A DNA stretch of 64,000 nucleotides, from the IMG/VR virus record IMGVR_UViG_3300033273_000833, positions 1 to 64,000 of that record. The stretch is one strand, 5' to 3'. Below are positions 28,453 to 56,012 of this stretch, one piece after another; position 1 is the stretch's first letter, and each line of letters opens with the position of its first letter. Origin of the DNA: a virus (Duplodnaviria; Caudoviricetes). Under the pieces are notes generated by a model. That model saw only the letters and a program-made list of their open reading frames with translations. It had not been told where the DNA came from and ran no database searches. The translations under genes and the position numbers were made by a program.

Positions 28453-28481
28453 TTGACTTCAATCCTATTTATTGTTAGAAT
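28453..28481 (+). promoter_or_regulatory. Sigma70-like promoter upstream of nrdA
   Basis: TTGACT-17-TAGAAT. Confidence 0.75.
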
Positions 28482-28532: not shown

Positions 28533-30986
28533 ATGGAAATAAAGGTTAAGAAAAGAAACGGTAGACTAGAAAATTTTGAAGTAGAAAAAATAAACGCAAG
28601 CGCTCAGAGAGCATGTGAAAACATCACAGACGTATCTCCGAGTGAAATTATACTCGACGCACAATTACAATTATATGACAAAATAACAACAGCAGAAATA
28701 GATAAAGCTCTAATACTCTCAGCAAGAGAAAAGATAGAAAAAGAGCCAAATTACTCATTCGCAGCAGCCCAACTGTTATTGAATACTGTATACAAGGAAG
28801 TATTTAAAGAAGGAGTAGATTCAGACACATTTAAACTACAATATAGAAAGAATTTTATACAAAACACAAAAAGATTAGTAAAACTAAATAGATTAGACAA
28901 AAGGCTATTAGAATTTGACTTGGTAAAACTATCTGAATCTCTAAAAATTAGAAGAGACAAGCAATTTAAATATTTAGGGATACAGATACTTACCGATAGA
29001 TATTTTATTAGGTCTGATAATAAAATCATGGAAGCTCCTCAATCCTTTTGGATGAGAGTCGCTATGGGTTTATCTCTAAACGAAGAAAATAAAAATGAAA
29101 AAGCAATTGAATTTTATGACTTAATAAGTCAAATGTTGTATACTCCATCAACCCCAACTTTATTTAATAGTGGAACAACACATTCACAACTTAGCTCCTG
29201 TTATCTTAATACTTTTGATGATAGTATTGATGGTATCTTTGACGGTGCTTGGCAGGAAGCTAGAAAATCAAAATACGCTGGTGGGCTTGGCCTTGATGTT
29301 ACCCCTTTTCGTTCTACAGGTTCTCATATTCAGGGAACTAATGGTATCTCTAGTGGCCTTGTACCATGGCTTAAGATATACAACGATCTTTTGGTGGCTG
29401 TAAATCAAGGCGGAAAGCGCCCAGGAGCTGGCTGCGCTTACTTAGAACCCTGGCATTTAGATTTTGAAGATTTTCTAAATTTAAGAAGGAATACAGGGGA
29501 CGATAGACTGCGTTGTCATGACATGAACACTGCTTCTTGGGTTCCAGATGAATTCATGCGTAGAGTAAAGAATGAAGACGCTTGGTATTTCTTTGATCCA
29601 AAAGATACTGAAGATGAGAATGGAAAAACCCTTCACGATCTTTTTGGAGAGGAGTTTGATAATCGATACGACGAGCTATGTAAAGCAGCAGACGCAGGTT
29701 CAATTAAAAATTATCGAATAATTCCTGCGAAAGAATTGTGGAAAAAAATGCTCAAAGTATTATTCGAAACATCACACCCATGGAATACCTTTAAAGATCC
29801 ATGTAATATTCGATACACAAATCAACACCAAGGAGCAGTTCGAAGCTCTAATCTTTGTACAGAAATCACACTCCACACAAAATCCTCAAAATATAAAAGC
29901 GGAGAAAAGACGGAGGTTGGCGAAACAGCTGTATGTAACCTAGGTTCAGTTAACTTAAGGAATCATTTAACTGAGAAAACGGCTCATGGTTCATCAAGTT
30001 ATGCGATTGATTACAAAAAATTAGAATCAACAATCCACACAGCAATTAGGATTTTAGATAACGTAATTGATTTAAATTTTTACCCAACCAAAGAAGCTCA
30101 AAACTCAAACTTTAAACATCGACCAATCGGACTAGGAATGATGGGTTTACATGACATCCTACATATGCTAGAGATTCAAATCGATAGTGACGAAGCTGTT
30201 AAATTTAATGATAAACTTTTTGAATTCTACTCCTGTCATGCTATTTATGCTAGTTCAAAACTAGCTAAAGAAAAAGGTTCTTATCAAAGTTATGAAGGGT
30301 CGTTATGGAGTCAAAATATACTACCGATTGATTCTTTTAATAATTTAATGTTATACAGGAAAAATAAAACAAAAGGATCTGAGACTCTAAAGGAGTGGGA
30401 TCAAGTAAGAAAACATATAAATGAATTTGGTATGCGCAATTCCAATGTTATGGCCATCGCTCCAACAGCTACTATTGGCTACATTAACGGGATAGAACAA
30501 AGCATAGAACCTAATTTTTCTGTTCTTTTTGTTTACGAAAATAAAAGTGGAAACTTTTTTATAACTAATGAACATTTTGTGAAAGATATGAAAAATAGAG
30601 ATTTATGGTCTACCGAAATGGCAACACTAGTTAAAGATGTTGACGGAGACTTATCGCTTTTAACAGAAGTAATACCTGACGAATTAAAAAATAAATACAA
30701 AACAGCATTTGACAGAGATATGTTTAAACTAATTAAATGCAACTCCGTTCGCCAAAAATGGATAGACCAGGCAGTCAGCTTCAATCTTTACAACAAAACC
30801 ACATCCTTAAAGTATTTAAATGATATTTATACAGCAAGCTGGGAATCTGGATTAAAAACCACATACTATTTGAGGAATAGAGCTGCAAGTAAAGTTGAGA
30901 AATCCACATCCCCAGAAGAGCAGGCTCCCTCAGCTTGCAGTATTGAAGCAATGAAGAACGGAGAAACATGTGAAAGCTGTCAATAG
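28533..30986 (+). CDS. nrdA: Ribonucleotide reductase class I alpha subunit with N-terminal ATP cone
   Basis: VKKRNG cone, TPTLFN, QLSSC, SNLCTEI, VCNLGS, APTA, TTYYLR and a C-terminal CESCQ tail; no intein. Confidence 0.97.
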   Translation: MEIKVKKRNGRLENFEVEKINASAQRACENITDVSPSEIILDAQLQLYDKITTAEIDKALILSAREKIEKEPNYSFAAAQLLLNTVYKEVFKEGVDSDTFKLQYRKNFIQNTKRLVKLNRLDKRLLEFDLVKLSESLKIRRDKQFKYLGIQILTDRYFIRSDNKIMEAPQSFWMRVAMGLSLNEENKNEKAIEFYDLISQMLYTPSTPTLFNSGTTHSQLSSCYLNTFDDSIDGIFDGAWQEARKSKYAGGLGLDVTPFRSTGSHIQGTNGISSGLVPWLKIYNDLLVAVNQGGKRPGAGCAYLEPWHLDFEDFLNLRRNTGDDRLRCHDMNTASWVPDEFMRRVKNEDAWYFFDPKDTEDENGKTLHDLFGEEFDNRYDELCKAADAGSIKNYRIIPAKELWKKMLKVLFETSHPWNTFKDPCNIRYTNQHQGAVRSSNLCTEITLHTKSSKYKSGEKTEVGETAVCNLGSVNLRNHLTEKTAHGSSSYAIDYKKLESTIHTAIRILDNVIDLNFYPTKEAQNSNFKHRPIGLGMMGLHDILHMLEIQIDSDEAVKFNDKLFEFYSCHAIYASSKLAKEKGSYQSYEGSLWSQNILPIDSFNNLMLYRKNKTKGSETLKEWDQVRKHINEFGMRNSNVMAIAPTATIGYINGIEQSIEPNFSVLFVYENKSGNFFITNEHFVKDMKNRDLWSTEMATLVKDVDGDLSLLTEVIPDELKNKYKTAFDRDMFKLIKCNSVRQKWIDQAVSFNLYNKTTSLKYLNDIYTASWESGLKTTYYLRNRAASKVEKSTSPEEQAPSACSIEAMKNGETCESCQ

Positions 30987-31487: not shown

Positions 31488-31964
31488 ATGTCACAGTTAA
31501 ATAAAGGAACGGGTAGCTCCTTAACGAGCCCAATAACTAGAGAAGAAATATTCAGCCCAATAGAATCTTTTTTAGATTCTTTTTTTAATGATTCTTTCTC
31601 GGCTTTATCTAATTCATCAGGTATTTCTGTGTACGATAAATACAGTTATCCGAAAGTTGATATTATACAAAATGAAAAAGATATGTTAATCGAAGCAGAA
31701 ATCCCTGGATTATCCAAGGAAGATGTATCAGTTGAGCTAGAGAAAAATATCCTAACGATATCAGGCGTATCCAGAAAAGATAAGTCTTCAGATAAAACAA
31801 ATTACATACGCAGAGAAATAAAACGCTCTTCTTTTAAAAGATCATTCACAATATCTGATTCTTTAAATAAAGAAAAAATTAAAGCTGATTTTAAAGATGG
31901 AATATTAAATATTACTATACCTAAAAATAAACCAGACTCTGTAAAAAAATTGAAAATATTATAA
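31488..31964 (+). CDS. Small heat-shock protein (Hsp20 / alpha-crystallin)
   Basis: YPKVDI, AEIPGLSKEDV, SFKRSF, ADFKDGILNITIPK motifs. Confidence 0.95.
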   Translation: MSQLNKGTGSSLTSPITREEIFSPIESFLDSFFNDSFSALSNSSGISVYDKYSYPKVDIIQNEKDMLIEAEIPGLSKEDVSVELEKNILTISGVSRKDKSSDKTNYIRREIKRSSFKRSFTISDSLNKEKIKADFKDGILNITIPKNKPDSVKKLKIL

Positions 31965-34736: not shown

Positions 34737-35032
34737 AATACTTAATACTAATAACACTACTTTTATCATCTTGTTTTTCAGCTAATATAAAAAACAGTAA
34801 AAATTACATTAAAGATGAGACTATAACTTTAGAAACAATAGACACAAACCGAGACGGCAATTTATCTATATCAGAAATTAATTCATTTAAGAGACAATCA
34901 ACATCAAACAAATCAGATCCATTCAAGATATTTTTAGTTTTAATTAGTTTAGTTTTATTAATATCATCGTCTCCTTATGTAATAAATTCAATTAAGAATA
35001 AGTATGTCTCTAAGAATAAACAGAAGGAATAA
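34733..35032 (+). CDS. Lipoprotein with EF-hand and C-terminal TM helix (unimolecular-spanin-like topology)
   Basis: Lipobox LSSC (C14); DTNRDGNLSISE EF-hand loop (residues 37-48); hydrophobic 66-84; basic tail. Confidence 0.6.
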   Translation: MKYLILITLLLSSCFSANIKNSKNYIKDETITLETIDTNRDGNLSISEINSFKRQSTSNKSDPFKIFLVLISLVLLISSSPYVINSIKNKYVSKNKQKE

Positions 35033-38000
35033 TTTTCTAGAGATCAAAGAGGGTTCTAATTTAAAAATATTCAGAGCCCCAACTAGAGACCCCAATCAAA
35101 TCCCTGATCATGATTTTGCATACCACTTAGGCTATCATAATGGAAACAATTATGGCCTATCATCAAACCCACAATTTCATGTTAATTCTGACAGCGAATA
35201 CTATAGCAGCTCTGCGCTAAAATTTAATGGCACTGAATTTTTAGAGAGTAAAGAAATTAATCTATTAAACAAAAACAGTTTTTCTATTTCTACATGGGTC
35301 AACACAGAATCAGAGTTAGAAGAATTCCTAGTAACTGATGTAGATTCGTCAGGCGACGGTTCATTTTATTTAAAATCTAATAACGCCAGCGGTAGGCCAG
35401 AATTTGGAATATATAATGGAGTTAATGAGTTTGCATATGTAACTGGAAATAGTGGCATAAATGATGGTGATTGGCATCTAATTAACATTAATTTTAGCTG
35501 CGATAAACCAAACGAAGAAGTTTCTATAGAATTATACATAGATTCTTTTCTTCAAGAATCAAAATCTCTTAGCGGGATTCTTCATTTAGATTCTTTGTCT
35601 GGTAACGGCTTATGGGAAACAAGAAAACTTGAGGCTTCAAAATTAACAGACGACGATCAAACTTCATACATAGAAATGACTAACAGTCAAGAAGAATCAG
35701 ATCTGTATTTCGCTGAACCAATCACTGGAGGGATAGATAAAATAAGGTATCGAGCCATCAATGACGAAGCTAACTTTGGGGAAATCAAAACCTCATTAAT
35801 ATTAAAAAATAAAGACACGTCAGAAATTTCGACATGGGAACTCCAATCTTTCAAAAGCTCCAACTTTGATAACCAAAAAGCAATCAGCAACCCAACCCCT
35901 TTATATTTTGGACAAACTCCATTTCCACCACCCATACCAGAAAAAGGAATATCTTACGGCCCAGTAGAAAGCGTCTTCACCGCAGGCTGCCCATCAGAAT
36001 GCTTGTCGTATGATAATAGTTTGAAAACTTGGTTTCCAATACAGGATTACAGCATTTCATCGCCTCATGCAAGTAGAGTTATTATAAATATCCCCACAAT
36101 AAAACAATATGTATATGCTGGAAGCCCAAAAATTACAATCCAAGCAGGCGGAGTTTTTACGATTTACAGCAGCCACATAAACTCAAGCACAACTTTAAAC
36201 GTTATCTTTCTACCAATTGGATCCACCCCAAGCCTGACAGTAAACGAAACAACTAATACCATAGATATATCATACCCAAAAAGAAATTCATATTTTAGTT
36301 CAACAGATCCAGCCCTAGTAGATATACTAAACTTTATTAATAATCAAGATAACTTTACAGCAACAACAACAGCTACGACTTACTATAAAAATCAACCCAT
36401 GCGTGGATTAAATGACGGATCATACCAAGCAACAGATGAAACTGAATCCACAAACCCACAAGCCCATTATCCACTAAGAGCTGAAGACGCAAGAGATTAC
36501 GAAACAAACAGCTCTGGCGACGTCATCAACCACGAAGAGCAATATATATACGCAAACTTCAACACCTGGCAAACTGAAGCTCCCTTTCTATATGGACACG
36601 ATTGGGACTCGGCAAACTTTACAAACTACGAAATACTAGGTATTCGCTATCATTACAGCTCAGAACTATCAAATAGCTCAACAAATGGGATGACATTTTC
36701 AAGAATCATTGAATTTGGACTATACTTAAATAACACAGAATATGATTTATGGACATTTCTTCCCCTCAATAACTTTTCAGGATTAACTTCCAATATAAAC
36801 AATCAAAATAATTTCACAATAGGATCGTCTTCTTCAAATAACAAAGAAAAGTTTTATAAAGGAGAAATAGATCAATTAATTATTTTTGATAAAACAATCT
36901 CTCAAGATGAAATAAATTTTTTATATAATAATAATAGAGATAATGTATCGTACTCGAAAGAGCTAGCTGAAGACATGAAGGTAATTTCTTGGTATGACTT
37001 TGCTAATTCCGAAATTGTTGGATGGGACAGGCATTATAGAAAATCAGAAAAAAATGTAGCAAGACTTTATCACCTAAACAACACCAGAAAAGACTCAAGT
37101 TCATATGCAGTATTGCCTGAAGAATTTGGCGATATACAATATTCTAATGATGTTTTTAAGTTTTCTGATTATTCTGCATATTTCGACGGAGAAACTTATT
37201 TATTCGACGAAGGAGGTAAAGAACTTTCTTTTCATGGGAATTTTACAATAGATGTTTTCTTAAATTTTGCTCAAATACCAGGCGCAGACAGACAGGAGTT
37301 ATTAAGAACAAATCATTTCAAAAAAACAGGAACAAGTTTAAGTATTTATTTCCAAAACAATAGGTTATATTTCGACATGTATTTAGGTCTCAAGCAATTC
37401 ATGTTTATAGAAAGTAATGAGCTAGATATTTCTACTGACATTTTTTTTCATGTCGCAATATGTAGAGACAGGGAAAATGTTTATCTATTTTTTGATCGAA
37501 AGATTTGCGGACAAGCATCATTCCCATATTACCTACCAATTGATAACGCTTCAGAAGGTTTATATATTTTTAATGAATTTAATGGGTATGCTCAAGATTT
37601 CAGAATTATTACCGAAGCTTGTTTATATCAACCTGAAAAAGATATTGATGAGTTTACCAATAGGCTTAGTTCCGAATTTTATGAAAGAAACATTTTAACC
37701 ACTACATCACACTATCCAATAACTAAAAAAGTAGAATTTAATGATAGTGACGGCATATACATACCGTCAAAACATTTCATCGAAACCGCTCATGACCACA
37801 AAGCGTTTAATTTTCATAAAAACAGTTTCTCAATAATTGGCTGGTTCAGATTAGAAAACTTAATTAAATCTGGCTTCATATTAGGCTCCTGGAACGACGA
37901 AGGGGGAAACAGTCATAGTTACGCAATTAGGTACGTTAAAAACTTCAGAGACCAAGTAAACACTTTGGTGTTTCTCGCATCTGAAGATGGTACTAACTTT

Positions 38001-41000
38001 AGATCCGTTAGAACAATTAAGTTAAAAAATAATATAATGCGATCCGATAGATGGTATTTTTTCGCAGTAACTTATGATACTAATACTCAAAAATTAAAGT
38101 TTTTCTTATACGATCAACTTAGCTTTATAGATTCAAGCGAAGGTTTAGTAAATCAATTTTTTACTATATCGAGAAGAGACGACTTCCAAATTAATGGAGT
38201 AAAACACACCGAAGAAAGTGATACTTTTTTAGATATGTCTTTATCTCAATTATTCTTTTTAAACAAGCCAGCCTCTTTAGCTGAAATCGAGTCCTTCTGG
38301 AATTCTGGGGGAGGAATAAAATACAAAGAATCAATAGACTTAAATCGCTATGTTATAGCTTGGTTCGATTTCCCAGAAGGCTCCTTATTAGACCTACACA
38401 ACCAGAACCATTTAACTTCTTCTACAGCTTTTACAATTACAGAAGGTAGACGTAAGTTAGAAGCTAAAGATGATGAGGCTGAGATATTTTTAGTAAAGCC
38501 AACTATAGGTAATAATATATTATTTAATCTAGCTGAACATCGGCCCACATACGAAACTAACGGTATAAACAATCTACATTCTTTGCAATTTGATCAAACA
38601 AAAACCCCCTTCTTAGACTCTAATTTTACTTTAAACTTTAATACAGATTTTTCTTTTTATTTTTGCTTCAAATCTTCTGGAACAAATTCAGAGTTTAGGC
38701 CAATTGTAGATTTTTCTAATTCAGCAACACAGGGGCTATCAGTTTTATGGAAAGATACTCCAGAATCAAACTACCCAGGAATTTTAAAATTAATTGTAAA
38801 CAATCAAGAATTAGTATTTGAAAACGAACCTTTTATTAGAGACATAAATGTTGTAAACATAGAATGGAACAGAAAGAAGGAAAGAGTATTTTTATCATTA
38901 AATAACTCTAGACTTTCATCAGCTCCAAAGTCTCTAAAAAATACAGCAATCCATTTAAATTTTTCACAGACACCCATGTCTCTAGGCAAGTTTTATTATG
39001 ATAGCGAAAACGAATTAGGTAATTTCAACGGATTCCTTTCTGAGATATTATACCACTATGGATTAGCTCAAGTAGAAACACTTCAGTATTTTTCAGACAA
39101 ATATAACGCAATTCATCCTGGCACTAGCCCAGAGTATATATATGACGATGATGAACCTGCTATATTTTTTAATGTATCACAAATTAAACAATACATACAA
39201 GAAGGAACTAGCTATCTAGGAAGAATTCAATGCTCTCTATCAAATCCTATTTACTCAACAATTGAAAATAGCAATATTACAATTAACGAAAATGGAGACA
39301 TCTATTTAATAAGTCCAGCAGATAGAGATATAGATTCGTATCAGTATACAGTCATAACTTCAGACCAAGACTCAGATATTGAACAGTCTATGAGCTTTAT
39401 CACTTACGTTCAAAAGGACACGGTCATAGCTACTGTAGATACTAGTAATATCAAAACATTCTTAGCTGACAATGAAACCTCAAAAGGGACGGATTTAGGC
39501 TGTTTATCAGCCAACGAATCAGTCACATGGTCAACTCAAGATTCTTTGATAACAATAAACCCATACAGCGGCTGCATTACATTAAATGAAGATATTCCAC
39601 CTGGTACAGAGTCTATAGACTTTACAGTTTCAACATTAGATACAGAGGAAAACATTACTTCGTCAACAATAACCTTAACAATCTACAATCCAATAAGATC
39701 CTCTGAGTTAATATTTAAAAGTTCATACCCAAGTCCCACAATTGAACTAGATTATATACTTGAACCTGGGCAAGAATATATCGAAGTTGACTTCAATGAC
39801 GGCTTAGGCTACAGGTTAGTACATTACAATAATTTAACTTCGCCTATACCATCAAACTTTAGTACAGCAAACATTTTTCACAAAAACTCTCAAATATACA
39901 GCAACTACTTAAACAGCAATTATTGGAACGATTTTAATAAGTCGATACCCTTAATATCTTTACAGGATATCGCCTATCATGAATACGAAGAAAACTCTTT
40001 CGAGCAAGAATCCAGAGTTAAGTCTTATCAATTTATTAATAATTGGCAAGAATCAGATGTGCCAGAATCAGAAAATCTTTACCAAACTTTTAAATTCTCA
40101 GATATAAATCACTCAGACTTTAGTAATGCTCAAAATATAATCAACAATCTAAGTTATAAAATTGACAGGCAGTACCTAGAAGACGAAGATAACATTAATT
40201 ACAATGACAGGCTAGTATGGAGAAGAATTAGATTCACCCTATCCTCTAATCACTACTTTAAAATCAGAGGCAAATTTATATCCCTAAACGCAAGGCGTTA
40301 CGGATATAACGAAGGCGTCGATACGGGTTCTGAAAATCTAGCTGAACTAACTTTAATAGCCGATGAAGACTCAGTTCTGCAAAAGACATCATTTAATGGT
40401 TTTGACATCTCAAATCTTACATTAAATATAGAAACCGATCAATTAGTTGATTTAACAAAGTTTTTACAAGGATGTCGAATTGCAGACATTTCAATAATTA
40501 ATTTCAATACTTCAAATGTACTATGTATGTCAAATTTTGCTTCGAGAATGTACAGCAAAAATACCGTAGACCCAAGTGACTCAAGTCGGTCATTATTACC
40601 TATAAAAAATTTAATACAAAATGACATAGATTTTTCAAATGTATTAACTATTGATAGATTTTTATACGATTCACATGATTTTACCTACTCAAGCCAATTC
40701 AACGCAACACTTATTAATGGATACCAAGAAACCGATGTAACATCCTGCGAAGAAAACTGGGATCAGTGGCTGTTGGATAATAATAGTAACCACGAACACG
40801 ATATTAATTTATCCCAAGCCGATTTCAGCAATTTACTATCTATGAGTGAATCCTTCAGGGGCTGGTGTTCAAATTTTCAAGTCATATTTGATACTCAAAC
40901 TACAAAGACTTATACAAAAGTAAAAAATATGTACAGATGCTTCAGCGAGTGCCAGATCGGCATACATCCAATTTTATCAAATATAGTTAAATTCGTCTCT

Positions 41001-44000
41001 TTATCCAACTATAACCATAGTAGCATTTATCCTACCCAACAAAAAATTGTATCATCATTATCTTATAGATCAAGTGAATACGCTACAGATTATTCATACA
41101 GCAGCTATAGGTCGGAAAGAGACAATTATTTCTTTTTCGAATATTCAGACGAAAGAGTGATTAAGACGACTTATGGCGATACAGGTACAATTATACATAA
41201 CAACAAAGTTTATTCAAATAGCGCAAATCATTATCTACCAGAACTACAAGTCACACCAGTATTAATACCTTTTTTCACAAAAACAACAGTAGATTTAAGC
41301 TTATTCACAAATGGACTCAAAGATATTAGTTATCTATTTAGAGAGTTTTATAGTTTTTCTGATATTAATTTCACAAACCAATTAAAATCAACAAATTTTT
41401 CAGAAGTTATTGATATTAAAAAACTTTTTACTTCTAGTTTCTTGATTCAAAATATAACATTTCCAAATAATTCTAACCTAGCTCCCTCAAACATCAAAGA
41501 TTCCTCAGCTATGTTTAGCGAATGTTACACTTTAAAAAATGTTAACAATTTCGAATACATGTCTATACCAAACTCTGAAAGTTGTGAAAACATGTTTTAT
41601 TATTGCGTAGACCTCAAATCCATAAAAATACCTCACTTAAATAAAGTAAAGTCTCTACATAGAATGTTTTATCATTGCATCAATCTATCATTAATAGAAG
41701 GCTCTACAGATGCATTTGGATACGGAGGCCCTAACTCTACAGGTTTAATTGATCTAGAGGACGGCTCAGAATGCTTTTATAAAAATGAAAAATTAAAAAC
41801 CTTAAACTTATCTAATATAACTTCAACTAAATTATCAAATATTAATAAAATGTTTTATGGTTGCAGAAGACTTTCATCGATTTATATTGGAGAAACATAC
41901 GTCAATGAAGGATCAGCATCTAATAGTGATAAAAATTTCTACCTAGGTAATGTGACCACTGCGAATTTAGCCTTTTTTCAATGTGAATTCTTAAGATGGT
42001 TCTGTCGAAAAGGAGAAAATATTTTTGACATAGAAAGAATTAATTTGCAAAATTGCTCCAGTGCGGTAGGCATCTTCAGATATTGCTTTAGACCTCTTTT
42101 TCTAGACCTTCAAGATGTTATATTAAACCCTTTACGAAGCACTAATACCTACGACTACCCAAATGATATAGGAAAATTCTTACAACCAATAAGCTTTTGG
42201 GATTTTTCGCAAAGCTTAGAGGATAATCTATTAGAAGCCTGCACATATCCAGATAAGTATTCAGAGCTGGTTGATTATTTTTTTCAAGAACAAGACTTAC
42301 TAGACTCTGGAGATTTTGATCTCGCGAGTAAACCTCCTGTATTTAAAAAAGGTACAGAAGTTTCGAATTTCCCTCAAGCCGAAATAGAAGGGTTAGTAGA
42401 CAAAGGTGATTTCAATATTGAAATCATACTTGCTCACAACAGCTCTTTTGATTTAAGATACATAAAAGCGATAATCTCGCCAAACTACGAGCACTATGAT
42501 TTGTTCCTAAACTCACTAACAGACGGAACTTCAATCAATACAGTTAGAATTTTCTGGACTTACTCCACCCACCCGAACGAAAGTTCTATATTAACCAACC
42601 ATTTCGGCACGAGCGCAATTACTCCTTACGAATTTTTTATAGCTCAAGGAGGAAATTACGAAGGAGAATTATGTATCTTTATAAAAGATAGAAACTCAAC
42701 CGTTCAAGATATAATCGAAGCTAATCGGGGTCCAGGCATCAAATTTGAAACTCTGCTTGATGTAGAAGCAGATCCTATCGGCACCTTAGACCTAGACGGG
42801 TCTCCTCAATACTCCTCAGGGAGCTTAAGTAATAGCTCAAATTCTTCATACATTTCCGCTAATTATGCAATTAAGCCTTGGTTTACCTACCGAAGCAATT
42901 TAATTTTAGATTTAAACGAAAACTCTGGAATTAATTTAGCTAACGCTTTTAGAAACTGCACCCTTATTGAAAATGTATTCATAAAAGGCTCTTCAGCAAA
43001 AATAAATAATTTTTCTGGAGCCTTCGGTCACAACACATCACTCAGGTATTGTGACACATCTAGCATAAATTTCTTAGATAATTACACAAGTGAATCTGCT
43101 TTTTTTAACTGCTTAAACCTTAGGCAGGTCAATCTTGGTTCTAATTTCTTACCTCAAAATAATCAAAATAGAAACCTAAGAAGTATGTTCATGTATTGTG
43201 ATTTTTTAGTTAAAATAGATAATGATTGTGCTGATTGGTATGGACCAAACTTAAAAACAATAGAAAACTTGTTTAACAGATGTAGTTTATTAAAGCAAAT
43301 TAATCTATCCAACTTAAGTCCAGTAAAATGTAAATATATGGATTTTGCTTTTCTTTCTTGCACAAGCCTAGAATCTCTCGATTTAACAAACTTCAACAGC
43401 CATAAACTGCAGTCTTTAAAGAGCGCGTTTAGCCACTTATCTTTAAAATCATATTCAGGTCTACTAAATTACTATTACAACCCATCAGCTCTTAGATTAA
43501 ATTACCTACCTTCTGCAAAAATAATTCCTTATACTATTGCATATGAAGACATACTCTACAACTCAAACACAAATACGTCTGTATTTTTTAGTAATTCCTA
43601 CCTAAATATGCTAAGAGAAGGAGATAGATTCACAGAGCTTTTCTCATGCGCTTCAAAATTTGGTCCACTTAAATTCGAAATCCCCGAATTACACAACATT
43701 TCATCAACGCGCGTAGATCTTGATTTATCCAGCCTGGATTTATCGAACGTAAGAGACGCGACCTCACTAGATTCGCTTGATGGAAGCTTGGGTTATAGTA
43801 GCTCCTATGTAAGATACGGCATAGCCAGGAACCCAGACGATACCTTTGATATAGAAGCTCTACACTCTAGAGGCCTGTGGAGACACGATGACTATAATTA
43901 TATCTCAGAAAATACATTAACAATAAATAGTGAAGGAGAAATTACTTCTATAGAAGAACCATTATATATATCAAACTATAACAGTAATTACGAAGACAAT

Positions 44001-45701
44001 CTTGACCATCAAAATTATCTCACTTACACTTATGGTACATTATATACACTTTCGTTAAATCCTAGAGCTACCGAGATGAATCCATACGACAGAGAAGCGA
44101 CAACAGATGATATTATAAACAGCGCCTCAGACCCAGATCTCGAATACCAATCAACAGAAAAAGGTTTTAACGCGGGCAACGGCGCCAGAATGAATGATTC
44201 TCGTGGTTACAATAATGATCGACACCCAGAAACGACTTTACTATCAAACGGCTCGAATGCTCTTTCTAATCTTTTTTATAATTCAAAAATTAATAATTTA
44301 AAAATAGGAGGAAGTTTTGAGATTCCAAACATTGAACCGACTTTAAAAACATATGATTACGGACATGGTATAAATTTTAATTCAGATGCCGATAATTTTT
44401 TTAATTTTGAAAAAAATTCAAATGATCCAAGTTATGCAGCAAGTAACCCTTACTTTTCTGATGAAAACCACAGTAATAAATGGAGCACAAGCGTTAGGGG
44501 GGTTAGAGCTCCAAGTCCATTATCAATGTTTCGTAGTTCGTATATAAATAACCTAGAAATATCAAATAATTTCCTTCAGTCATGTGAAAAATCTTATGCT
44601 TTAACCGCTATGTTCTATATGGCTAACATCTCAAGTTCGACAGGCTTAGATTTTACAAAACTCAAGACAGATAGCGCAATTTATATGGATCAACTTTTCT
44701 TCGGATATAACGGTACAAACATAAACACCTCCACATTCAAAACCAGCAAAGCTGTAACGATAAAAAATCTTTTTTACAACATCTATAACATATTTAATCA
44801 TAATATAATTACAACAAGCTGGGACACGAGCAATGTCAAGAATTTTGAACACGCTTTCGCTTGGCCCGCAACTACAGGAGGCTCAAACCAAACAGAAGTA
44901 GATAGCATTCTATCCACCTTTGAAATCAACCTATCGGGACTTTCATTCAATTCAGCAGAATTAATTAGAGGAATATTTTGGTACAATAATATTAACTACA
45001 TGATACTACCAACAAATAATTTATTAAGACCTTCTTCTAGAAAAATTTTTACACTAAATAATGTATTCGCAAATTCTGGACGATTTGGTTCATCGACGCC
45101 GTATTCCTTTGCCTTGCCACATTCAAATGAAGATATATTGACAAAAGTTAACGCTTTTTTAAGCTTTCTTGAGCCAGGGCTAACCAATAGAATATCCCTT
45201 AACTCAGCTTTCAATGCTCTAACTCCAGGTAATCAACAAACTACTGAAGATAACCCGACTTACGGATATTACAACACAGACAACAGCTCAAGAAGATCTC
45301 AGCCATATATTTTAGATTTAACGCCTATTGTAGGCAAGTCTATAACGTCATTATATTCTACATTTTTAACATATTTTGGCGGACAGCTAGCAAAGTCTCC
45401 TTTCATAACATCTATCACTAACATTGAGAATTTGTCATTTGACGAAGAAGTAGACGCCTATGACCTATTTAGCGCACTCAGAAGAGTCCATCCAGATTTA
45501 GCAATGAATTTATCTTCTTGGTGTTTGCCTAACGTAGATTATACAGAAAGCGATTTTTTTGATCAAAACAATATACACAATAGCCCTCAGGCCCCAATAT
45601 ACAGCTTTGTAGTATCTGATAGTCAAGGCGGGTATCACGAAAAATCTTCTGCCGCTAATGCAGGAGTTACTTTACCTAATTTTGGTGAACCTTGTGCATA
45701 A
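35004..45701 (+). CDS. Giant 3565-aa multidomain protein: about four LamG domains, cadherin-like repeats, BspA/DUF285 leucine-rich repeats
   Basis: LamG patterns (FSISTWV..WH, FTIDVF..FHVA, FSIIGWF..WYFFAVTYD, FNGFLSEI); LRR units such as WDTSNVKNFEHAF and FKTSKAVTIKNLF; C-terminal NLSSWC...P.FG..C typical of DUF285 proteins; no signal peptide. Confidence 0.75.
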   Translation: MSLRINRRNNFLEIKEGSNLKIFRAPTRDPNQIPDHDFAYHLGYHNGNNYGLSSNPQFHVNSDSEYYSSSALKFNGTEFLESKEINLLNKNSFSISTWVNTESELEEFLVTDVDSSGDGSFYLKSNNASGRPEFGIYNGVNEFAYVTGNSGINDGDWHLININFSCDKPNEEVSIELYIDSFLQESKSLSGILHLDSLSGNGLWETRKLEASKLTDDDQTSYIEMTNSQEESDLYFAEPITGGIDKIRYRAINDEANFGEIKTSLILKNKDTSEISTWELQSFKSSNFDNQKAISNPTPLYFGQTPFPPPIPEKGISYGPVESVFTAGCPSECLSYDNSLKTWFPIQDYSISSPHASRVIINIPTIKQYVYAGSPKITIQAGGVFTIYSSHINSSTTLNVIFLPIGSTPSLTVNETTNTIDISYPKRNSYFSSTDPALVDILNFINNQDNFTATTTATTYYKNQPMRGLNDGSYQATDETESTNPQAHYPLRAEDARDYETNSSGDVINHEEQYIYANFNTWQTEAPFLYGHDWDSANFTNYEILGIRYHYSSELSNSSTNGMTFSRIIEFGLYLNNTEYDLWTFLPLNNFSGLTSNINNQNNFTIGSSSSNNKEKFYKGEIDQLIIFDKTISQDEINFLYNNNRDNVSYSKELAEDMKVISWYDFANSEIVGWDRHYRKSEKNVARLYHLNNTRKDSSSYAVLPEEFGDIQYSNDVFKFSDYSAYFDGETYLFDEGGKELSFHGNFTIDVFLNFAQIPGADRQELLRTNHFKKTGTSLSIYFQNNRLYFDMYLGLKQFMFIESNELDISTDIFFHVAICRDRENVYLFFDRKICGQASFPYYLPIDNASEGLYIFNEFNGYAQDFRIITEACLYQPEKDIDEFTNRLSSEFYERNILTTTSHYPITKKVEFNDSDGIYIPSKHFIETAHDHKAFNFHKNSFSIIGWFRLENLIKSGFILGSWNDEGGNSHSYAIRYVKNFRDQVNTLVFLASEDGTNFRSVRTIKLKNNIMRSDRWYFFAVTYDTNTQKLKFFLYDQLSFIDSSEGLVNQFFTISRRDDFQINGVKHTEESDTFLDMSLSQLFFLNKPASLAEIESFWNSGGGIKYKESIDLNRYVIAWFDFPEGSLLDLHNQNHLTSSTAFTITEGRRKLEAKDDEAEIFLVKPTIGNNILFNLAEHRPTYETNGINNLHSLQFDQTKTPFLDSNFTLNFNTDFSFYFCFKSSGTNSEFRPIVDFSNSATQGLSVLWKDTPESNYPGILKLIVNNQELVFENEPFIRDINVVNIEWNRKKERVFLSLNNSRLSSAPKSLKNTAIHLNFSQTPMSLGKFYYDSENELGNFNGFLSEILYHYGLAQVETLQYFSDKYNAIHPGTSPEYIYDDDEPAIFFNVSQIKQYIQEGTSYLGRIQCSLSNPIYSTIENSNITINENGDIYLISPADRDIDSYQYTVITSDQDSDIEQSMSFITYVQKDTVIATVDTSNIKTFLADNETSKGTDLGCLSANESVTWSTQDSLITINPYSGCITLNEDIPPGTESIDFTVSTLDTEENITSSTITLTIYNPIRSSELIFKSSYPSPTIELDYILEPGQEYIEVDFNDGLGYRLVHYNNLTSPIPSNFSTANIFHKNSQIYSNYLNSNYWNDFNKSIPLISLQDIAYHEYEENSFEQESRVKSYQFINNWQESDVPESENLYQTFKFSDINHSDFSNAQNIINNLSYKIDRQYLEDEDNINYNDRLVWRRIRFTLSSNHYFKIRGKFISLNARRYGYNEGVDTGSENLAELTLIADEDSVLQKTSFNGFDISNLTLNIETDQLVDLTKFLQGCRIADISIINFNTSNVLCMSNFASRMYSKNTVDPSDSSRSLLPIKNLIQNDIDFSNVLTIDRFLYDSHDFTYSSQFNATLINGYQETDVTSCEENWDQWLLDNNSNHEHDINLSQADFSNLLSMSESFRGWCSNFQVIFDTQTTKTYTKVKNMYRCFSECQIGIHPILSNIVKFVSLSNYNHSSIYPTQQKIVSSLSYRSSEYATDYSYSSYRSERDNYFFFEYSDERVIKTTYGDTGTIIHNNKVYSNSANHYLPELQVTPVLIPFFTKTTVDLSLFTNGLKDISYLFREFYSFSDINFTNQLKSTNFSEVIDIKKLFTSSFLIQNITFPNNSNLAPSNIKDSSAMFSECYTLKNVNNFEYMSIPNSESCENMFYYCVDLKSIKIPHLNKVKSLHRMFYHCINLSLIEGSTDAFGYGGPNSTGLIDLEDGSECFYKNEKLKTLNLSNITSTKLSNINKMFYGCRRLSSIYIGETYVNEGSASNSDKNFYLGNVTTANLAFFQCEFLRWFCRKGENIFDIERINLQNCSSAVGIFRYCFRPLFLDLQDVILNPLRSTNTYDYPNDIGKFLQPISFWDFSQSLEDNLLEACTYPDKYSELVDYFFQEQDLLDSGDFDLASKPPVFKKGTEVSNFPQAEIEGLVDKGDFNIEIILAHNSSFDLRYIKAIISPNYEHYDLFLNSLTDGTSINTVRIFWTYSTHPNESSILTNHFGTSAITPYEFFIAQGGNYEGELCIFIKDRNSTVQDIIEANRGPGIKFETLLDVEADPIGTLDLDGSPQYSSGSLSNSSNSSYISANYAIKPWFTYRSNLILDLNENSGINLANAFRNCTLIENVFIKGSSAKINNFSGAFGHNTSLRYCDTSSINFLDNYTSESAFFNCLNLRQVNLGSNFLPQNNQNRNLRSMFMYCDFLVKIDNDCADWYGPNLKTIENLFNRCSLLKQINLSNLSPVKCKYMDFAFLSCTSLESLDLTNFNSHKLQSLKSAFSHLSLKSYSGLLNYYYNPSALRLNYLPSAKIIPYTIAYEDILYNSNTNTSVFFSNSYLNMLREGDRFTELFSCASKFGPLKFEIPELHNISSTRVDLDLSSLDLSNVRDATSLDSLDGSLGYSSSYVRYGIARNPDDTFDIEALHSRGLWRHDDYNYISENTLTINSEGEITSIEEPLYISNYNSNYEDNLDHQNYLTYTYGTLYTLSLNPRATEMNPYDREATTDDIINSASDPDLEYQSTEKGFNAGNGARMNDSRGYNNDRHPETTLLSNGSNALSNLFYNSKINNLKIGGSFEIPNIEPTLKTYDYGHGINFNSDADNFFNFEKNSNDPSYAASNPYFSDENHSNKWSTSVRGVRAPSPLSMFRSSYINNLEISNNFLQSCEKSYALTAMFYMANISSSTGLDFTKLKTDSAIYMDQLFFGYNGTNINTSTFKTSKAVTIKNLFYNIYNIFNHNIITTSWDTSNVKNFEHAFAWPATTGGSNQTEVDSILSTFEINLSGLSFNSAELIRGIFWYNNINYMILPTNNLLRPSSRKIFTLNNVFANSGRFGSSTPYSFALPHSNEDILTKVNAFLSFLEPGLTNRISLNSAFNALTPGNQQTTEDNPTYGYYNTDNSSRRSQPYILDLTPIVGKSITSLYSTFLTYFGGQLAKSPFITSITNIENLSFDEEVDAYDLFSALRRVHPDLAMNLSSWCLPNVDYTESDFFDQNNIHNSPQAPIYSFVVSDSQGGYHEKSSAANAGVTLPNFGEPCA

Positions 45702-45707
45702 ATTTTA

Positions 45708-45736
45708 TTGACATTGATCTTTTTTTAACTTATAAT
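45708..45736 (+). promoter_or_regulatory. Consensus sigma70 promoter for nrdB
   Basis: TTGACA-17-TATAAT; ATG at 45753. Confidence 0.85.
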
Positions 45737-45752
45737 CGTTATATATAAAATT

Positions 45753-46766
45753 ATGAAAGATAAAACTGGAGAACTATTAACAAAAAATATTGCAGGAGTA
45801 AATAGAATTTTACCTCATAAACATAAATACGCATGGGATTTATTTTTAAAAAGTTGCGCAAACAATTGGATGCCTACAGAAATTTCTATGCAAAATGACA
45901 TCCAACAATGGAAAAACAATGAAATCACAGAAGATGAAAAACTCTTGGTTAAGCGCTGCCTTGGATTCTTTGCTGGATCTGAGTCTTTGGTTGGTAATAA
46001 TTTGCTTTTGTCAGCTTTTAGATTTATTACTGACGCTGAGTGTCGTCAGTACATTTTGCGTCAAGCGTTTGAAGAAAGCTTACACAACTTGACCGTAGTA
46101 TATATATGCGACAGTCTAGATCTTGATATAGAAGAGGTCTTTACTGCCTACGAAACAATACCTAGTATAAAAGCAAAAGATGACTTCTTAATGAATATAA
46201 CCAACGACATCAGTAGGCAAGACTTTGATCCTCACACAAAAGAAGGCAAGCAAGAAATTCTAAGGAACTTTCTAACGTACTGGATTGTATGCGAGGGTAC
46301 ATTCTTCTTCAGCGGCTTCGCAATGCTTTTGGCGCTAGGCAGACAAAACAAGCTTCAAGGAATTTCGGATCAAATTAAATATACATTGAGGGACGAAAGT
46401 TCACACATTGCATTTGGAACTTATTTAATTAATACATTAATCGAGCAGAATCCTTCTATATGGACTAAGGCAATTCAAGATGAATTTGTCGAACATATAA
46501 AAAAGGCTGTAGAGCTAGAAATCGCATATGCACATGATGTACTTCCTACTGGAATTTTAGGATTAAATGCAGAAATGTTCGTCGATTATATGCACTACAT
46601 CGGCAATAGAAGGTTAGAAGCAATAGGTCTAGACTATCGTTTTCCTAGTGATAAAAACCCTTTCCCTTGGCTAGGAGAAGTTGTTGACGTACAAGCTATG
46701 GGTAACTTTTTTGAAAGAAGGGTTAGGGAGTACCAGCAAAGCGGATCTTTAGAAGACGATTTCTAA
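45753..46766 (+). CDS. nrdB: Ribonucleotide reductase beta subunit with class Ic (R2c, Mn/Fe) signature
   Basis: Ligands E77, E108, H111, E181, E215, H218; Val115 at the radical-Tyr position; NFFERRVREY tail. Confidence 0.93.
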   Translation: MKDKTGELLTKNIAGVNRILPHKHKYAWDLFLKSCANNWMPTEISMQNDIQQWKNNEITEDEKLLVKRCLGFFAGSESLVGNNLLLSAFRFITDAECRQYILRQAFEESLHNLTVVYICDSLDLDIEEVFTAYETIPSIKAKDDFLMNITNDISRQDFDPHTKEGKQEILRNFLTYWIVCEGTFFFSGFAMLLALGRQNKLQGISDQIKYTLRDESSHIAFGTYLINTLIEQNPSIWTKAIQDEFVEHIKKAVELEIAYAHDVLPTGILGLNAEMFVDYMHYIGNRRLEAIGLDYRFPSDKNPFPWLGEVVDVQAMGNFFERRVREYQQSGSLEDDF

Positions 46767-46767
46767 A

Positions 46768-47454
46768 TTACTTATCTTTCTTTTTCTTACTCGATTCTTG
46801 AGCTTTTTTTAAGGACTTAGGGTCTGGGTAATCTTTATCTCCAGGTTTTGCTGGTTTATAATTTTTACCCATTCTTTTTTTCTTGTTTCTAATATTTTCC
46901 CAAAGCCCAGGTTTTGAAGCGTCGGATTCTTTTTCCTTGCTAGGAGTTTTATCTTTTTTATCTTCCTTAGTATCTTTGCCTTTTTTTTGTAAAATTTTCT
47001 TTTGGAGAGCTGGAGGTAACTTTTTTTGTTCTTTTGTTAGTTCGGCATCCGATTCATCTAGAAAAGATACCATCTCTTCCTCGGCTTGTTGCTCTCCTTT
47101 AGTCATTTTGGTAACGCTTTTCTTACTCCACATTTTACAACTCCAATATTTAGCTTTCGTTTTAGGTCCAGGATTATCGCAACCATGCCTAGCCCTAAAA
47201 CTTTTACGCCTTGCAGGATCGTCCCGCTTAATAGACATATTTGGGTCCCCGAAATTAACTTTCACTACGTTGCCTTTATCGTTTTTAACGTAAACAGAAA
47301 ACTTCTTAGGTCCACCAGGAGTTCTAAAGGGTTTATTTAATTTTTTTCCTTTATTTTCCTCTGCAGCCCAAGCTTCTTCCGAAATAAATTCTTCATTTCC
47401 TTGTTGTGCTAATAGTTGATCTTTAATTTGTTGAGTAAAATCTAATTCTTTCAT
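46768..47454 (-). CDS. Lys-rich phage protein with KVNFGDPNM...RRKSFRARHGC...YWSCKMW domain
   Basis: Motif type I recall from uncultured aquatic phages; very basic C-terminus; GTGTA motif 9 nt upstream. Confidence 0.7.
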   Translation of the reverse strand: MKELDFTQQIKDQLLAQQGNEEFISEEAWAAEENKGKKLNKPFRTPGGPKKFSVYVKNDKGNVVKVNFGDPNMSIKRDDPARRKSFRARHGCDNPGPKTKAKYWSCKMWSKKSVTKMTKGEQQAEEEMVSFLDESDAELTKEQKKLPPALQKKILQKKGKDTKEDKKDKTPSKEKESDASKPGLWENIRNKKKRMGKNYKPAKPGDKDYPDPKSLKKAQESSKKKKDK

Positions 47455-55381: not shown

Positions 55382-56012
55382 ATTACTTAGATTTAATAAA
55401 AAACAGAAATATATATATTTTGATTTTGAAACTTGTGGCCTTAATTTAGCCTCAAAAGAAAACAAACCTTGGCAGCTTGCGTTTATAGTATCCGATGGAA
55501 CTAAGATCGTTTCAGAAAAAGATTATTTAATCAAGTGGGACACTCTTGATATTTCTGATGGAGCTGCAAAAACAACAGGATTCTCTAGAGCGAAATATAA
55601 CAAGCTTTCTGTTGATCCAACAATGGTTCTCGATGAATTTGAGAAATACATTTATGACGATCAATATTTAATTATAGGACACAATATACTTGGTTTTGAT
55701 GTTTATATACATAATATATTTAGAAAGCTACTAGGCAGAGATACAGACTACTCTTATATAAACAGATGCATCGACACACTGTCTTTATCTAAAGCTAAAT
55801 TAAAAGAAATTAAATTCGATAAAAATCAAACTTTAATTAATTGGCAATATAGATTAAACTCTTTTAGAGAAAGAGGCATGAAGTGTAGCTTAAAAGTAAT
55901 GTGCAAATTATATGATATACCCTTTGATGAATCAAAATTGCATGATGCATTATATGATATTAGAATTAACAAATTATTATTCGAGAAATTAATATGGCAA
56001 ATAGATATTTAA
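55371..56012 (+). CDS. dnaQ: DEDDh 3'-5' exonuclease (DnaQ/epsilon-like)
   Basis: FDFETCG, GHNILGFD, LHDALYD; likely start MADKLL at 55371. Confidence 0.88.
   Translation: MADKLLRFNKKQKYIYFDFETCGLNLASKENKPWQLAFIVSDGTKIVSEKDYLIKWDTLDISDGAAKTTGFSRAKYNKLSVDPTMVLDEFEKYIYDDQYLIIGHNILGFDVYIHNIFRKLLGRDTDYSYINRCIDTLSLSKAKLKEIKFDKNQTLINWQYRLNSFRERGMKCSLKVMCKLYDIPFDESKLHDALYDIRINKLLFEKLIWQIDI

What the first reader, a model, noticed from the sequence alone, without database searches (positions are those of the whole stretch)
45753..46766. Phage-encoded class Ic (tyrosyl-radical-free, Mn/Fe) ribonucleotide reductase
Seen: E77/E108/H111/E181/E215/H218 align at a constant +12 offset with Chlamydia trachomatis R2c ligands E89/E120/H123/E193/E227/H230 (numbering from memory). 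The first ligand is Glu rather than Asp, the radical-Tyr position (Ct F127) is Val115, and Y210 matches Ct Y222. Established: class Ic uses a Mn(IV)/Fe(III) cofactor instead of a Tyr radical and tolerates H2O2 and NO better. Phage RNRs are mostly described as class Ia/Ib, II or III. Inference: oxidative-stress-resistant dNTP supply, probably acquired from a PVC-type host.
Basis: partly seen in the sequence, partly recalled or inferred. Interest (0 to 1): 0.75.

Follow-up and report, generated by a model that had tools for sequence, protein, structure and literature searches.

The report
Tyrosine-less (Val-type) phage RNR small subunit
A 203-kb uncultured marine phage encodes its own ribonucleotide reductase, and its small subunit has valine where most such enzymes keep the radical tyrosine; the reading is sound, but this Val/Ile lineage is common in ocean viromes, was flagged in a 2026 preprint, is not derived from the Chlamydia/Planctomycete enzyme, and has never been tested biochemically.

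Summary
ORF 45753-46766(+) is a 337-aa NrdB. It aligns without gaps over the ligand region at a +12 offset to C. trachomatis R2c (1SYY, E 1.7e-112, about 52% identity). E77/E108/H111/E181/E215/H218 sit on the six ligands, V115 on F127 and Y210 on Y222.

The site carries the class Ic signature: Glu as first ligand and no oxidisable residue at the Tyr site. The protein nevertheless belongs to a separate Val/Ile clade (support 100/97). Class Ia NrdBz proteins are closer to chlamydial R2c than this protein is (442 vs 379 bits). An AU test rejects a clade joining the Val/Ile group with the Chlamydia/Planctomycete type (p 0.003), so a PVC origin is not supported. The nearest cellular relatives are Alphaproteobacteria and Deinococcota MAGs whose contigs carry cellular genes, so the clade is not virus-only.

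The clade has its own pocket signature. Thr211 replaces the near-universal Ile (E. coli I234), and N112 and C180 are also clade-specific. Its NrdA partners (55-59% identical) form a matching group.

A 2026 preprint (PMC12918982) already named this viral group "subclass Ic-like" (Ile/Val, 269 GOV2.0 populations). This scan has reported it before on other genomes. The cofactor is unknown; Mn/Fe is an inference.

The parts
45753..46766 (+). nrdB: class I RNR beta subunit, 337 aa, Val/Ile-type (tyrosine-less)
   Evidence: ORF. PF00268 at 3e-76. 1SYY at E 1.7e-112. It is the only PF00268 match in the 203-kb genome.
45708..45736 (+). Perfect consensus sigma-70-type promoter (TTGACA-17-TATAAT, 12/12), ending 17 nt before the nrdB ATG
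   Evidence: This is a consensus match only and no transcription start was shown.
45981..45983 (+). Codon E77: first metal ligand, Glu instead of the class Ia Asp (Ct E89)
   Evidence: Invariant in homologues.
46074..46085 (+). E108-x-x-H111 ligand motif (Ct E120/H123)
46095..46097 (+). Codon V115 (GTA) at the radical-Tyr site (E. coli Y122, Ct F127)
   Evidence: In 77 lineage genes the codon is GTA 65, ATA 7, ATT 2, GTT 2, GTG 1.
46290..46295 (+). C180-E181: a clade-specific Cys directly before ligand E181 (Ct M192-E193)
   Evidence: Cys in 10 of 11 Val/Ile-clade rows, Met/Leu/Phe elsewhere. Both Cys codons are used.
46380..46385 (+). Y210 (Ct Y222) and T211 (Ct I223, E. coli I234 of the Tyr pocket)
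   Evidence: Thr pairs with Val/Ile/Leu at position 115, and Ile pairs with Tyr/Phe. All four Thr codons are used.
46395..46406 (+). E215-x-x-H218 ligand motif (Ct E227/H230)
46731..46733 (+). Codon Y327: C-terminal tyrosine of the radical-transfer path (E. coli Y356). The tail ends in EDDF.
   Evidence: Invariant in alignment A1. The DDF ending is specific to the clade.
28533..30986 (+). nrdA: the cognate alpha subunit, 817 aa, one ATP-cone, about 15 kb upstream of nrdB
   Evidence: PF02867 at 2e-173, PF00317 and PF03477. It is the only match in the genome. Best PDB hit is 5IM3 at 778 bits. The NLCTE, SSCYL and TTYYLR motifs and a C-terminal CESC are visible.
28453..28481 (+). Promoter-like site before nrdA (TTGACT-17-TAGAAT with TG, 10/12)
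   Evidence: Consensus match only.

Best explanation
The gene encodes the working radical-generating (beta) subunit of the phage's only ribonucleotide reductase, paired with the NrdA at 28533-30986.

Shown here: it keeps all six carboxylate/histidine metal ligands, the Trp39 and Tyr327 radical-transfer residues and an alpha-binding tail, but it has no oxidisable residue at the radical site (Val115).

Inferred: the oxidising equivalent must therefore be stored on a high-valent dimetal cluster, as in class Ic, and sent to the NrdA cysteine on each turnover. By analogy with Chlamydia that cluster would be Mn(IV)/Fe(III), but the metal identity is not shown.

Shown here: the protein belongs to a distinct, strongly conserved Val/Ile clade of NrdBz-like proteins. 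The clade has its own pocket (Thr211 in place of Ile, plus Asn112 and Cys180) and co-diverged NrdA partners. It occurs in several marine phage lineages and in a few bacterial MAGs. It is not a recent copy of the chlamydial or planctomycete enzyme.

Inferred: the phage transcribes nrdB from its own host-type promoter and relies on host thioredoxin or glutaredoxin.
For: Family and ligands. Position 115 is Val or Ile only, in more than 200 lineage sequences. Selection is purifying and the key codons vary synonymously.

There is one nrdA and one nrdB in a genome estimated complete, and no class III gene. The NrdA catalytic motifs and ATP-cone are intact.

The Val/Ile clade has support 100/97 and sits inside an 18-row clade of Glu-type tyrosine-less proteins (96/82). 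Across all sampled sequences, first-ligand Glu goes with a non-Tyr site and Asp goes with Tyr. The window's NrdA is 55-59% identical to the NrdAs that sit next to Val/Ile NrdBs, against 47-48% to other NrdAz-type proteins.

A perfect promoter lies upstream. Two 151-nt contigs at 98.7% identity or better occur in a seawater metatranscriptome (a weak hint, since DNA carry-over is not excluded). No glutaredoxin or thioredoxin family match was found in the phage. PMC12918982 describes the same Ile/Val viral clade.
Against: No member of the Val/Ile clade has been characterised, so the metal content is unknown (PMC12918982).

The clade does not group with the biochemically defined Chlamydia type, so transferring the Mn/Fe assignment is an extrapolation across about 50% identity.

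The pocket differs from R2c (Thr211, Asn112, Cys180), which could mean different activation chemistry.

The transcript evidence is minimal.
Confidence: 0.78

Rival explanations
1. Same tyrosine-less logic but a different cofactor. The Val/Ile + Thr211 pocket would support a di-manganese cluster (class Id-like Mn(IV)/Mn(III)) or another iron-sparing cluster, or a different activating oxidant, rather than Mn(IV)/Fe(III).
For: The clade is phylogenetically separate from the characterised R2c. It has clade-specific second-sphere residues next to ligands: N112 after H111, C180 before E181, and T211 four residues before E215. PMC12918982 reports that the Ic-like group is anti-correlated with modelled iron, and says outright that its cofactor could be mixed, another metal or none.
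Against: The ligand set is identical to Ct R2c, including Glu as first ligand. The class Id proteins known so far keep the Tyr (PMC6370689). No NrdI-type or other activase was looked for or seen. The preprint itself says the iron pattern is not explained by a single metal.
Confidence: 0.17
2. A recent horizontal copy of a PVC (Chlamydia/Planctomycete) class Ic gene, taken from a PVC host.
For: The best PDB hit is chlamydial R2c. Another note on this genome reports a PVC-typical DUF1549/DUF1553/DUF1501 cassette (I did not check it).
Against: Identity to Ct is only about 52%, and about 50% to planctomycete proteins, the same as to Asp/Tyr NrdBz of Betaproteobacteria. The planctomycete protein scores 556 bits to 1SYY and a class Ia NrdBz scores 442, against 379 for this protein. 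The AU test rejects the joint clade. The closest cellular proteins (57-62%) come from Alphaproteobacteria and Deinococcota MAGs. The PDB holds no Asp/Tyr NrdBz beta subunit among these hits, so the top hit is partly a sampling effect.
Confidence: 0.03
3. A class Ia-like enzyme that keeps a tyrosyl radical on another residue (Y117 or Y210), or a non-catalytic R2-like protein.
For: Y117 and Y210 are invariant in the lineage.
Against: The same two tyrosines are conserved in the Asp/Tyr and Glu/Phe clades, including Ct R2c (Y129, Y222), which forms no stable radical. Glu as first ligand co-occurs with loss of the Tyr across the family. It is the only NrdB in the genome, so it has to be catalytic. 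R2lox proteins match only at about 1e-10, and this protein has the C-terminal Tyr and tail.
Confidence: 0.02

Closest known systems
Marine viral 'subclass Ic-like' RNR clade (PMC12918982, bioRxiv 2026: 269 GOV2.0 populations)
   Same: Marine viral origin. The beta subunit lacks the radical Tyr and carries Ile or Val. The alpha subunit is close to NrdAz but separate from it. No member has been characterised.
   Different: I could not compare sequences directly, so identity with that clade is inferred from its description. Here nrdA and nrdB lie 15 kb apart. I also find cellular members and a Thr211/Asn112/Cys180 signature. Neither appears in the passages I read.
Chlamydia trachomatis class Ic R2c (PDB 1SYY, 4D8F; F127Y mutant 2ANI)
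   Same: The fold, all six ligands including Glu as first ligand, a redox-inert residue at the Tyr site, and W51, Y222 and the C-terminal Tyr equivalents.
   Different: Val instead of Phe at the site. Thr211 for Ile223, Asn112 for Thr124 and Cys180 for Met192. About 52% identity. It is a separate clade, and the joint clade is rejected. The partner NrdA has one ATP-cone. The cofactor is untested.
PDB 6Y2N (Glu/Phe-type R2; I recall it as Saccharopolyspora erythraea R2c, but the tool gave no organism)
   Same: Glu as first ligand and Phe at the Tyr site. It matches the query at 7e-106.
   Different: It is closer to Asp/Tyr NrdBz proteins (526 bits with Nitrosospira) than to this protein (357 bits).
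NrdAz/NrdBz class Ia of Pseudomonas aeruginosa type (NrdA structure 5IM3)
   Same: The window's NrdA best matches 5IM3 (778 bits). NrdB is 49-50% identical to Asp/Tyr NrdBz of Nitrosomonas, Burkholderiales and others.
   Different: Those beta subunits have Asp as first ligand and keep the Tyr. The nearest beta subunits in the phages collection are of this Tyr type, not Ic: Pseudomonas vB_PpuM phages and the records labelled 'Acinetobacter phage MD-2021a'.
Leu-type tyrosine-less R2 (metagenomic representatives P0166, P0247). RNRdb counts Leu as Ic.
   Same: Glu as first ligand, an aliphatic residue at the Tyr site, and Thr at position 211.
   Different: It is a separate branch, sister to Phe-type proteins. 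It has Ala at 112 and Leu/Met at 180.

Membership tests
Class I RNR beta subunit (PF00268, ferritin-like dimetal-carboxylate) | Family profile match over the full length | tested here: met
   PF00268 at 3.1e-76, residues 19-303 of the protein on profile positions 4-281 of 281.
Class I RNR beta subunit (PF00268, ferritin-like dimetal-carboxylate) | Two E/D...ExxH metal-binding motifs (six ligands) | tested here: met
   E77, E108, H111, E181, E215 and H218 align to the Ct ligands and are invariant in homologues.
Class I RNR beta subunit (PF00268, ferritin-like dimetal-carboxylate) | Radical-transfer residues (E. coli W48 and Y356 equivalents) and a cognate NrdA with the catalytic Cys and YY pair | tested here: met
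   W39 and Y327 are invariant. NrdA at 28533-30986 has the NLCTE, SSCYL, TTYYLR and C-terminal CESC motifs.
Class Ic (R2c / RNRdb NrdBzc) | Redox-inert residue at the radical-Tyr site (RNRdb rule: Phe, Leu or Val) | tested here: met
   V115 aligns to Ct F127. The rule is quoted in PMC6370689. PMC12918982 notes that its Ic references carry only Phe or Leu.
Class Ic (R2c / RNRdb NrdBzc) | Glu instead of Asp as first metal ligand | tested here: met
   E77 = Ct E89.
Class Ic (R2c / RNRdb NrdBzc) | Groups phylogenetically with the characterised Chlamydia-type R2c | tested here: not met
   The Val/Ile rows form their own clade (100/97). The Ct-type, represented by L010 (556 bits to 1SYY), nests among Asp/Tyr proteins. 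The joint clade is rejected (p-AU 0.0034). Caveats: no true Chlamydiota sequence could be fetched, and the group was named after the tree had been seen.
Class Ic (R2c / RNRdb NrdBzc) | Mn(IV)/Fe(III) cofactor acting as the radical initiator | not testable with these tools
   This needs metal analysis, EPR/Moessbauer and activity assays.
Viral 'subclass Ic-like' clade (PMC12918982) | Ile or Val at the Tyr site, a marine viral contig, and an alpha subunit outside but nearest to NrdAz | tested here: met
   Val/Ile only. Homologues come from Tara, JGI and ENA marine sources. The NrdA best matches NrdAz-type 5IM3 but is 55-59% identical to partners of Val/Ile NrdBs against 47-48% to others. I made no direct sequence comparison with the preprint's set.
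[quoted passage not shown] | Closest similarity to R2lox, and no NrdA-binding tail or C-terminal Tyr | tested here: not met
   R2lox chains match only at 1e-8 to 1e-10, against 1e-112 for R2c. Y327, the tail and a cognate NrdA are all present.
Class Id (NrdBi, Mn(IV)/Mn(III)) | Tyr retained at the site, and membership of the NrdBi clade | tested here: not met
   The Tyr is absent. Chains I recall as class Id structures (for example 6CWO, 8DQ4; the tool named neither organism nor subclass) match only at about 1e-8 to 1e-9.

The most novel reading that the evidence does not exclude
The aliphatic-site proteins (Val/Ile here, Leu in a separate branch) that pair with Thr at the E. coli I234 position would form a functionally distinct class I subclass. 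Its remodelled, more polar pocket next to metal site 1 would support a cofactor or activation chemistry different from chlamydial Mn(IV)/Fe(III), for example an iron-free cluster suited to iron-poor ocean water.
Probability: 0.18. Interest if true: 0.7.

Novelty: new member of a known kind. Interest (0 to 1): 0.35.

Why it matters
RNR subclass determines which trace metals a replicating phage needs. About 1.4% of the RNR sequences recovered from GOV2.0 viral populations belong to this uncharacterised Ile/Val group (PMC12918982), so knowing its cofactor would link viral replication to ocean Mn/Fe supply. The enzyme is small and soluble, and its partner NrdA is in the same genome, so the question can be tested directly at the bench. 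As a discovery it is not new: the clade has been flagged in a preprint and this scan has found it repeatedly.

Tried and rejected
- Megablast of 17 kb of the window against cultured phages found only a 44-bp nrdB match, so there is no cultured close relative.
- The nearest NrdBs in the phages collection (Pseudomonas vB_PpuM-*, 'Acinetobacter phage MD-2021a') looked like candidate phage R2c proteins but carry Asp/Tyr. The 'Acinetobacter phage' contig carries bacterial-looking genes.
- A 19-sequence alignment was too diverse for the search for related loci. A 5-sequence alignment worked.
- A degenerate DNA pattern for a C. trachomatis-specific peptide found nothing in genome contigs. No true Chlamydiota sequence entered the tree, and Planctomyces L010 stands in for that lineage.
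- The independent-contrast test of the 115/211 coupling found only two contrasts, both in the same direction. It cannot reach significance.
- Sequencing runs: the one RNA run gave two short contigs inside nrdB and nothing over the promoter. I draw no inference from the uncovered parts, and neither the transcription start nor the strand could be read.
- I ran no structure prediction. The tool returns no coordinates, so pocket distances could not be measured, and 52% identity to solved structures already fixes the fold.
- The 90% clusters of the deep Val/Ile and Phe/Leu representatives carried no organism names.
- I rejected PVC origin, a hidden alternative Tyr radical site, and R2lox (see the rival explanations).

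Full report
**What is there.** The ORF at 45753-46766(+) encodes a 337-aa protein. It matches Pfam Ribonuc_red_sm over its whole length (3e-76). The window is the first 64 kb of a 203,067-bp IMG/VR virus record that CheckV rates 100% complete. The window also carries tail-sheath, primase and exonuclease PHROG hits, and DnaB, Pol III alpha and RecA-like genes. So this is a phage gene.

**The RNR complement of the genome.** The genome has exactly one nrdB. It has exactly one RNR catalytic-barrel gene, nrdA at 28533-30986. It has no class III gene and no glutaredoxin or thioredoxin family match. The NrdA has one ATP-cone, the catalytic-site motifs (SSCYL, NLCTE, TTYYLR) and a C-terminal CESC pair. 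nrdA and nrdB lie 15 kb apart, separated by several genes including a 3565-aa ORF. nrdB has its own perfect consensus promoter (TTGACA-17-TATAAT) ending 17 nt before the ATG.

**Checking the observation.** phmmer against PDB sequences puts C. trachomatis R2c first (1SYY, 2ANI, 4D8F; E 1.7e-112). The alignment runs from query 8 to 333 on chain 20 to 344, with a single gap near residue 296.
- E77/E89, E108/E120, H111/H123, E181/E193, E215/E227 and H218/H230 for the ligands.
- V115/F127 for the radical site. The F127Y mutant 2ANI shows Tyr in that column.
- Y210/Y222.

W39 (Ct W51) and the C-terminal Y327 are also conserved. My hand count of the midline gives about 52% identity to Ct.

**Conservation in the lineage.** There are 120 homologues at 81-96% identity from Tara, JGI, ENA and Logan marine data, on contigs of up to about 200 kb. 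There are also 80 IMG/VR contigs. In all of them the six ligands are invariant and position 115 is only Val or Ile. Among 77 gap-free genes the codon at 115 is GTA, GTT, GTG, ATA or ATT. The ligand codons, T211, C180 and N112 all vary synonymously. Median dN/dS is about 0.03, from only 14 usable pairs with dS near saturation. The residues are therefore held by selection.

**Where it sits in the family.** An exhaustive HMMER search of 1.8 billion cluster representatives shows a clean rule among relatives. Asp as first ligand goes with Tyr at the site. Glu goes with Phe, Leu, Val or Ile, apart from a small Glu/Tyr group.

Organism-labelled loci show that identity to the query is about 50% both for Planctomycete and Kuenenia Glu/Phe proteins and for Asp/Tyr proteins of Nitrosomonas, Burkholderiales and others.

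The calibration against the PDB is telling:
- A Planctomyces Glu/Phe protein scores 556 bits against 1SYY.
- A Tyr-bearing Nitrosospira NrdB scores 442 bits against 1SYY and 526 bits against the Glu/Phe structure 6Y2N.
- The phage protein scores only 379 and 357 bits.

So the 'best hit is chlamydial R2c' result reflects which structures have been solved, not special kinship.

An IQ-TREE analysis of 79 non-redundant full-length proteins (LG+C20) gives the following picture:
- All Val/Ile rows form one clade with support 100/97.
- That clade sits inside an 18-row clade of Glu-type tyrosine-less metagenomic proteins (96/82).
- The Planctomyces, Bradyrhizobium and 6Y2N-type Glu/Phe proteins nest within the Asp/Tyr NrdBz clade.

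Forcing the Val/Ile clade together with the Ct-type rows costs 85 log-likelihood units (p-AU 0.0034). The group was named after the tree had been seen, and no genuine Chlamydiota sequence could be fetched.

NrdA tells the same story. The window's NrdA is 55-59% identical to the NrdAs encoded next to Val/Ile NrdBs and 47-48% identical to other NrdAz-type proteins. Its best structure match is P. aeruginosa NrdA, 5IM3.

**Origin.** The PVC hypothesis is not supported. The closest relatives outside this phage lineage are:
- A 73% protein on a 44-kb contig binned as Pseudomonadales.
- 62% proteins in two Deinococcota MAGs.
- 57-59% proteins in three Alphaproteobacteria MAGs.

In these six loci nrdA lies directly upstream of nrdB. 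In each of the five Deinococcota and Alphaproteobacteria MAGs the Val/Ile gene is the only PF00268 match.

The alphaproteobacterial contigs carry YaaA, dCMP deaminase, purine-nucleoside phosphorylase, an FtsX/MacB-type permease, a TolC-like protein, carbonic anhydrase, a SulP transporter and DinB. One Deinococcota contig carries YceI. These are cellular contexts, so the Val/Ile type is not virus-only. This disagrees with earlier scan note e1-5320649.

A 55% Ile-type protein (P0271) sits on a different phage contig that also carries an intein-bearing terminase, ThyA, DHFR and an intein-bearing NrdA. The type therefore occurs in more than one phage lineage. The direction of transfer between cells and phages cannot be told without a root.

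**A clade-specific active-site signature.** I compared the 11 non-redundant Val/Ile rows with 17 Phe/Leu rows and 45 Asp/Tyr rows. The following are conserved only in the Val/Ile clade:
- N112, the residue after ligand H111.
- C180, the residue before ligand E181.
- T211.
- D120 and Q232.
- The C-terminal DDF.

T211 lies four residues before ligand E215. That is the position of E. coli I234, which with F208 and F212 forms the hydrophobic pocket around Y122 (from my own knowledge of the E. coli R2 structure). F185 and F189, the F208/F212 equivalents, are invariant.

Across all sequences gathered the pairing is nearly perfect. Tyr or Phe at 115 goes with Ile at 211 (95 and 39 cases). Val, Ile or Leu at 115 goes with Thr at 211 (84, 14 and 5 cases). 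The Leu/Thr proteins lie on a separate branch from the Val/Ile clade, which gives two independent contrasts in the same direction. That is too few for a significance test.

My inference is that the pocket next to metal site 1 is smaller-filled and more polar than in R2c. This could matter for oxidant access or cofactor tuning.

**Mechanism.**
- Shown: the dimetal site, the radical-transfer path and the partner NrdA are intact, and no oxidisable side chain sits at the radical position.
- Inferred: the oxidant is held on the metal cluster, as in class Ic.
- Not shown: which metals are used. Mn/Fe is the default by analogy. A different cluster is a live alternative (I give it about 0.17), because the clade is separate and its second sphere differs.

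Y117 and Y210 cannot explain a hidden radical site, since both are conserved in Ct R2c and in class Ia relatives. The proposed tolerance of class Ic to H2O2 and NO is a literature hypothesis and was not tested here.

**Expression.** A seawater metatranscriptome holds two 151-nt contigs inside nrdB with one or two mismatches. This is a weak hint only.

**Comparison with the literature and with this scan.** RNRdb's working rule assigns NrdBz proteins with Phe, Leu or Val at the Tyr site to subclass Ic (PMC6370689).

A 2026 preprint on GOV2.0 viral RNRs (PMC12918982) describes 269 viral populations whose alpha subunits form a clade next to NrdAz. Their beta subunits carry Ile or Val in place of the Tyr. 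The authors call the group 'subclass Ic-like', note that it has no characterised member, and report that it is anti-correlated with modelled iron. The present gene fits that description.

This scan has flagged the same clade on at least six other genomes, and follow-ups reached the same verdict.

- Class Ia NrdBz proteins are closer to chlamydial R2c than this protein is.
- The AU test rejects a shared clade with the Ct type.
- The Val/Ile clade has cellular members.
- The Thr211/Asn112/Cys180 signature and the 115/211 pairing.
- NrdA co-divergence.

**Verdict.** This is a real, functional, tyrosine-less phage RNR beta subunit. It carries the class Ic active-site signature but belongs to the already-noted Val/Ile 'Ic-like' clade. 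It is a new member of a known kind. The PVC origin is not supported and the cofactor is untested. Interest is moderate to low as a discovery, although the clade is a good target for biochemistry.

Noticed in passing
window 45708-45736: A perfect 12/12 sigma-70 consensus promoter (TTGACA-17-TATAAT) ends 17 nt before the nrdB ATG, and I saw no obvious Shine-Dalgarno sequence in the short leader. This fits an earlier scan note about near-leaderless host-type promoters in this phage.
   Followed up: partly
window 35004-45701: A 3565-aa ORF with a LamG-type lectin domain (PF13385) and DUF285 repeats lies between nrdA and nrdB. In most relatives examined nrdA and nrdB are adjacent.
   Followed up: no
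window 27531-28433, 31001-31417, 31488-31964: The genes flanking nrdA are a spermidine-synthase-domain protein, a NUDIX hydrolase and an Hsp20-family small heat-shock protein.
   Followed up: no
window 55994-58570, 58595-61039, 20588-23662: The phage encodes a Pol III alpha-type polymerase, a ClpB/ClpA-like double AAA+ protein (814 aa) and a 1024-aa protein with a bactofilin domain.
   Followed up: no
window 46768-47454 (-): A Lys-rich 228-aa ORF lies on the opposite strand and ends one base after the nrdB stop codon. It has no Pfam match.
   Followed up: no
L169:1465-2247, L170:1371-2165, L171:5400-6152: In all three alphaproteobacterial MAG contigs that carry an Ile/Val-type nrdAB, a YaaA (peroxide stress protein) gene lies within about 1-7 kb upstream of nrdA.
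   Followed up: partly
proteins P0122, P0123, P0127-P0129, P0131, P0132, P0134, P0136: Many NrdB relatives of about 640-660 aa match in two stretches that break beside ligand motifs, after residue 216 or around residues 91-115. This looks like intein insertion at the metal-site motifs. P0271's partner NrdA and its terminase also carry inteins.
   Followed up: no
L164 (BK013346.1, 2944-3858 of the locus): Aquificae Joseph's Coat Spring virus encodes a Glu/Phe (R2c-type) NrdB that is 32% identical to the query. So the phages collection already holds an assembled hot-spring virus genome with a Phe-type tyrosine-less R2.
   Followed up: partly
L162 (CAKLQH020000007.1): The record labelled 'Acinetobacter phage MD-2021a' carries LysR, PhzF and an Asp/Tyr nrdAB. 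It looks like bacterial chromosome rather than phage.
   Followed up: no
L002 and L003: Near-identical phage contigs are binned in public MAGs labelled Cellvibrionales (a 210,818-bp contig, probably a whole phage genome) and Candidatus Woesebacteria. These are likely binning artefacts and should not be read as host evidence.
   Followed up: no
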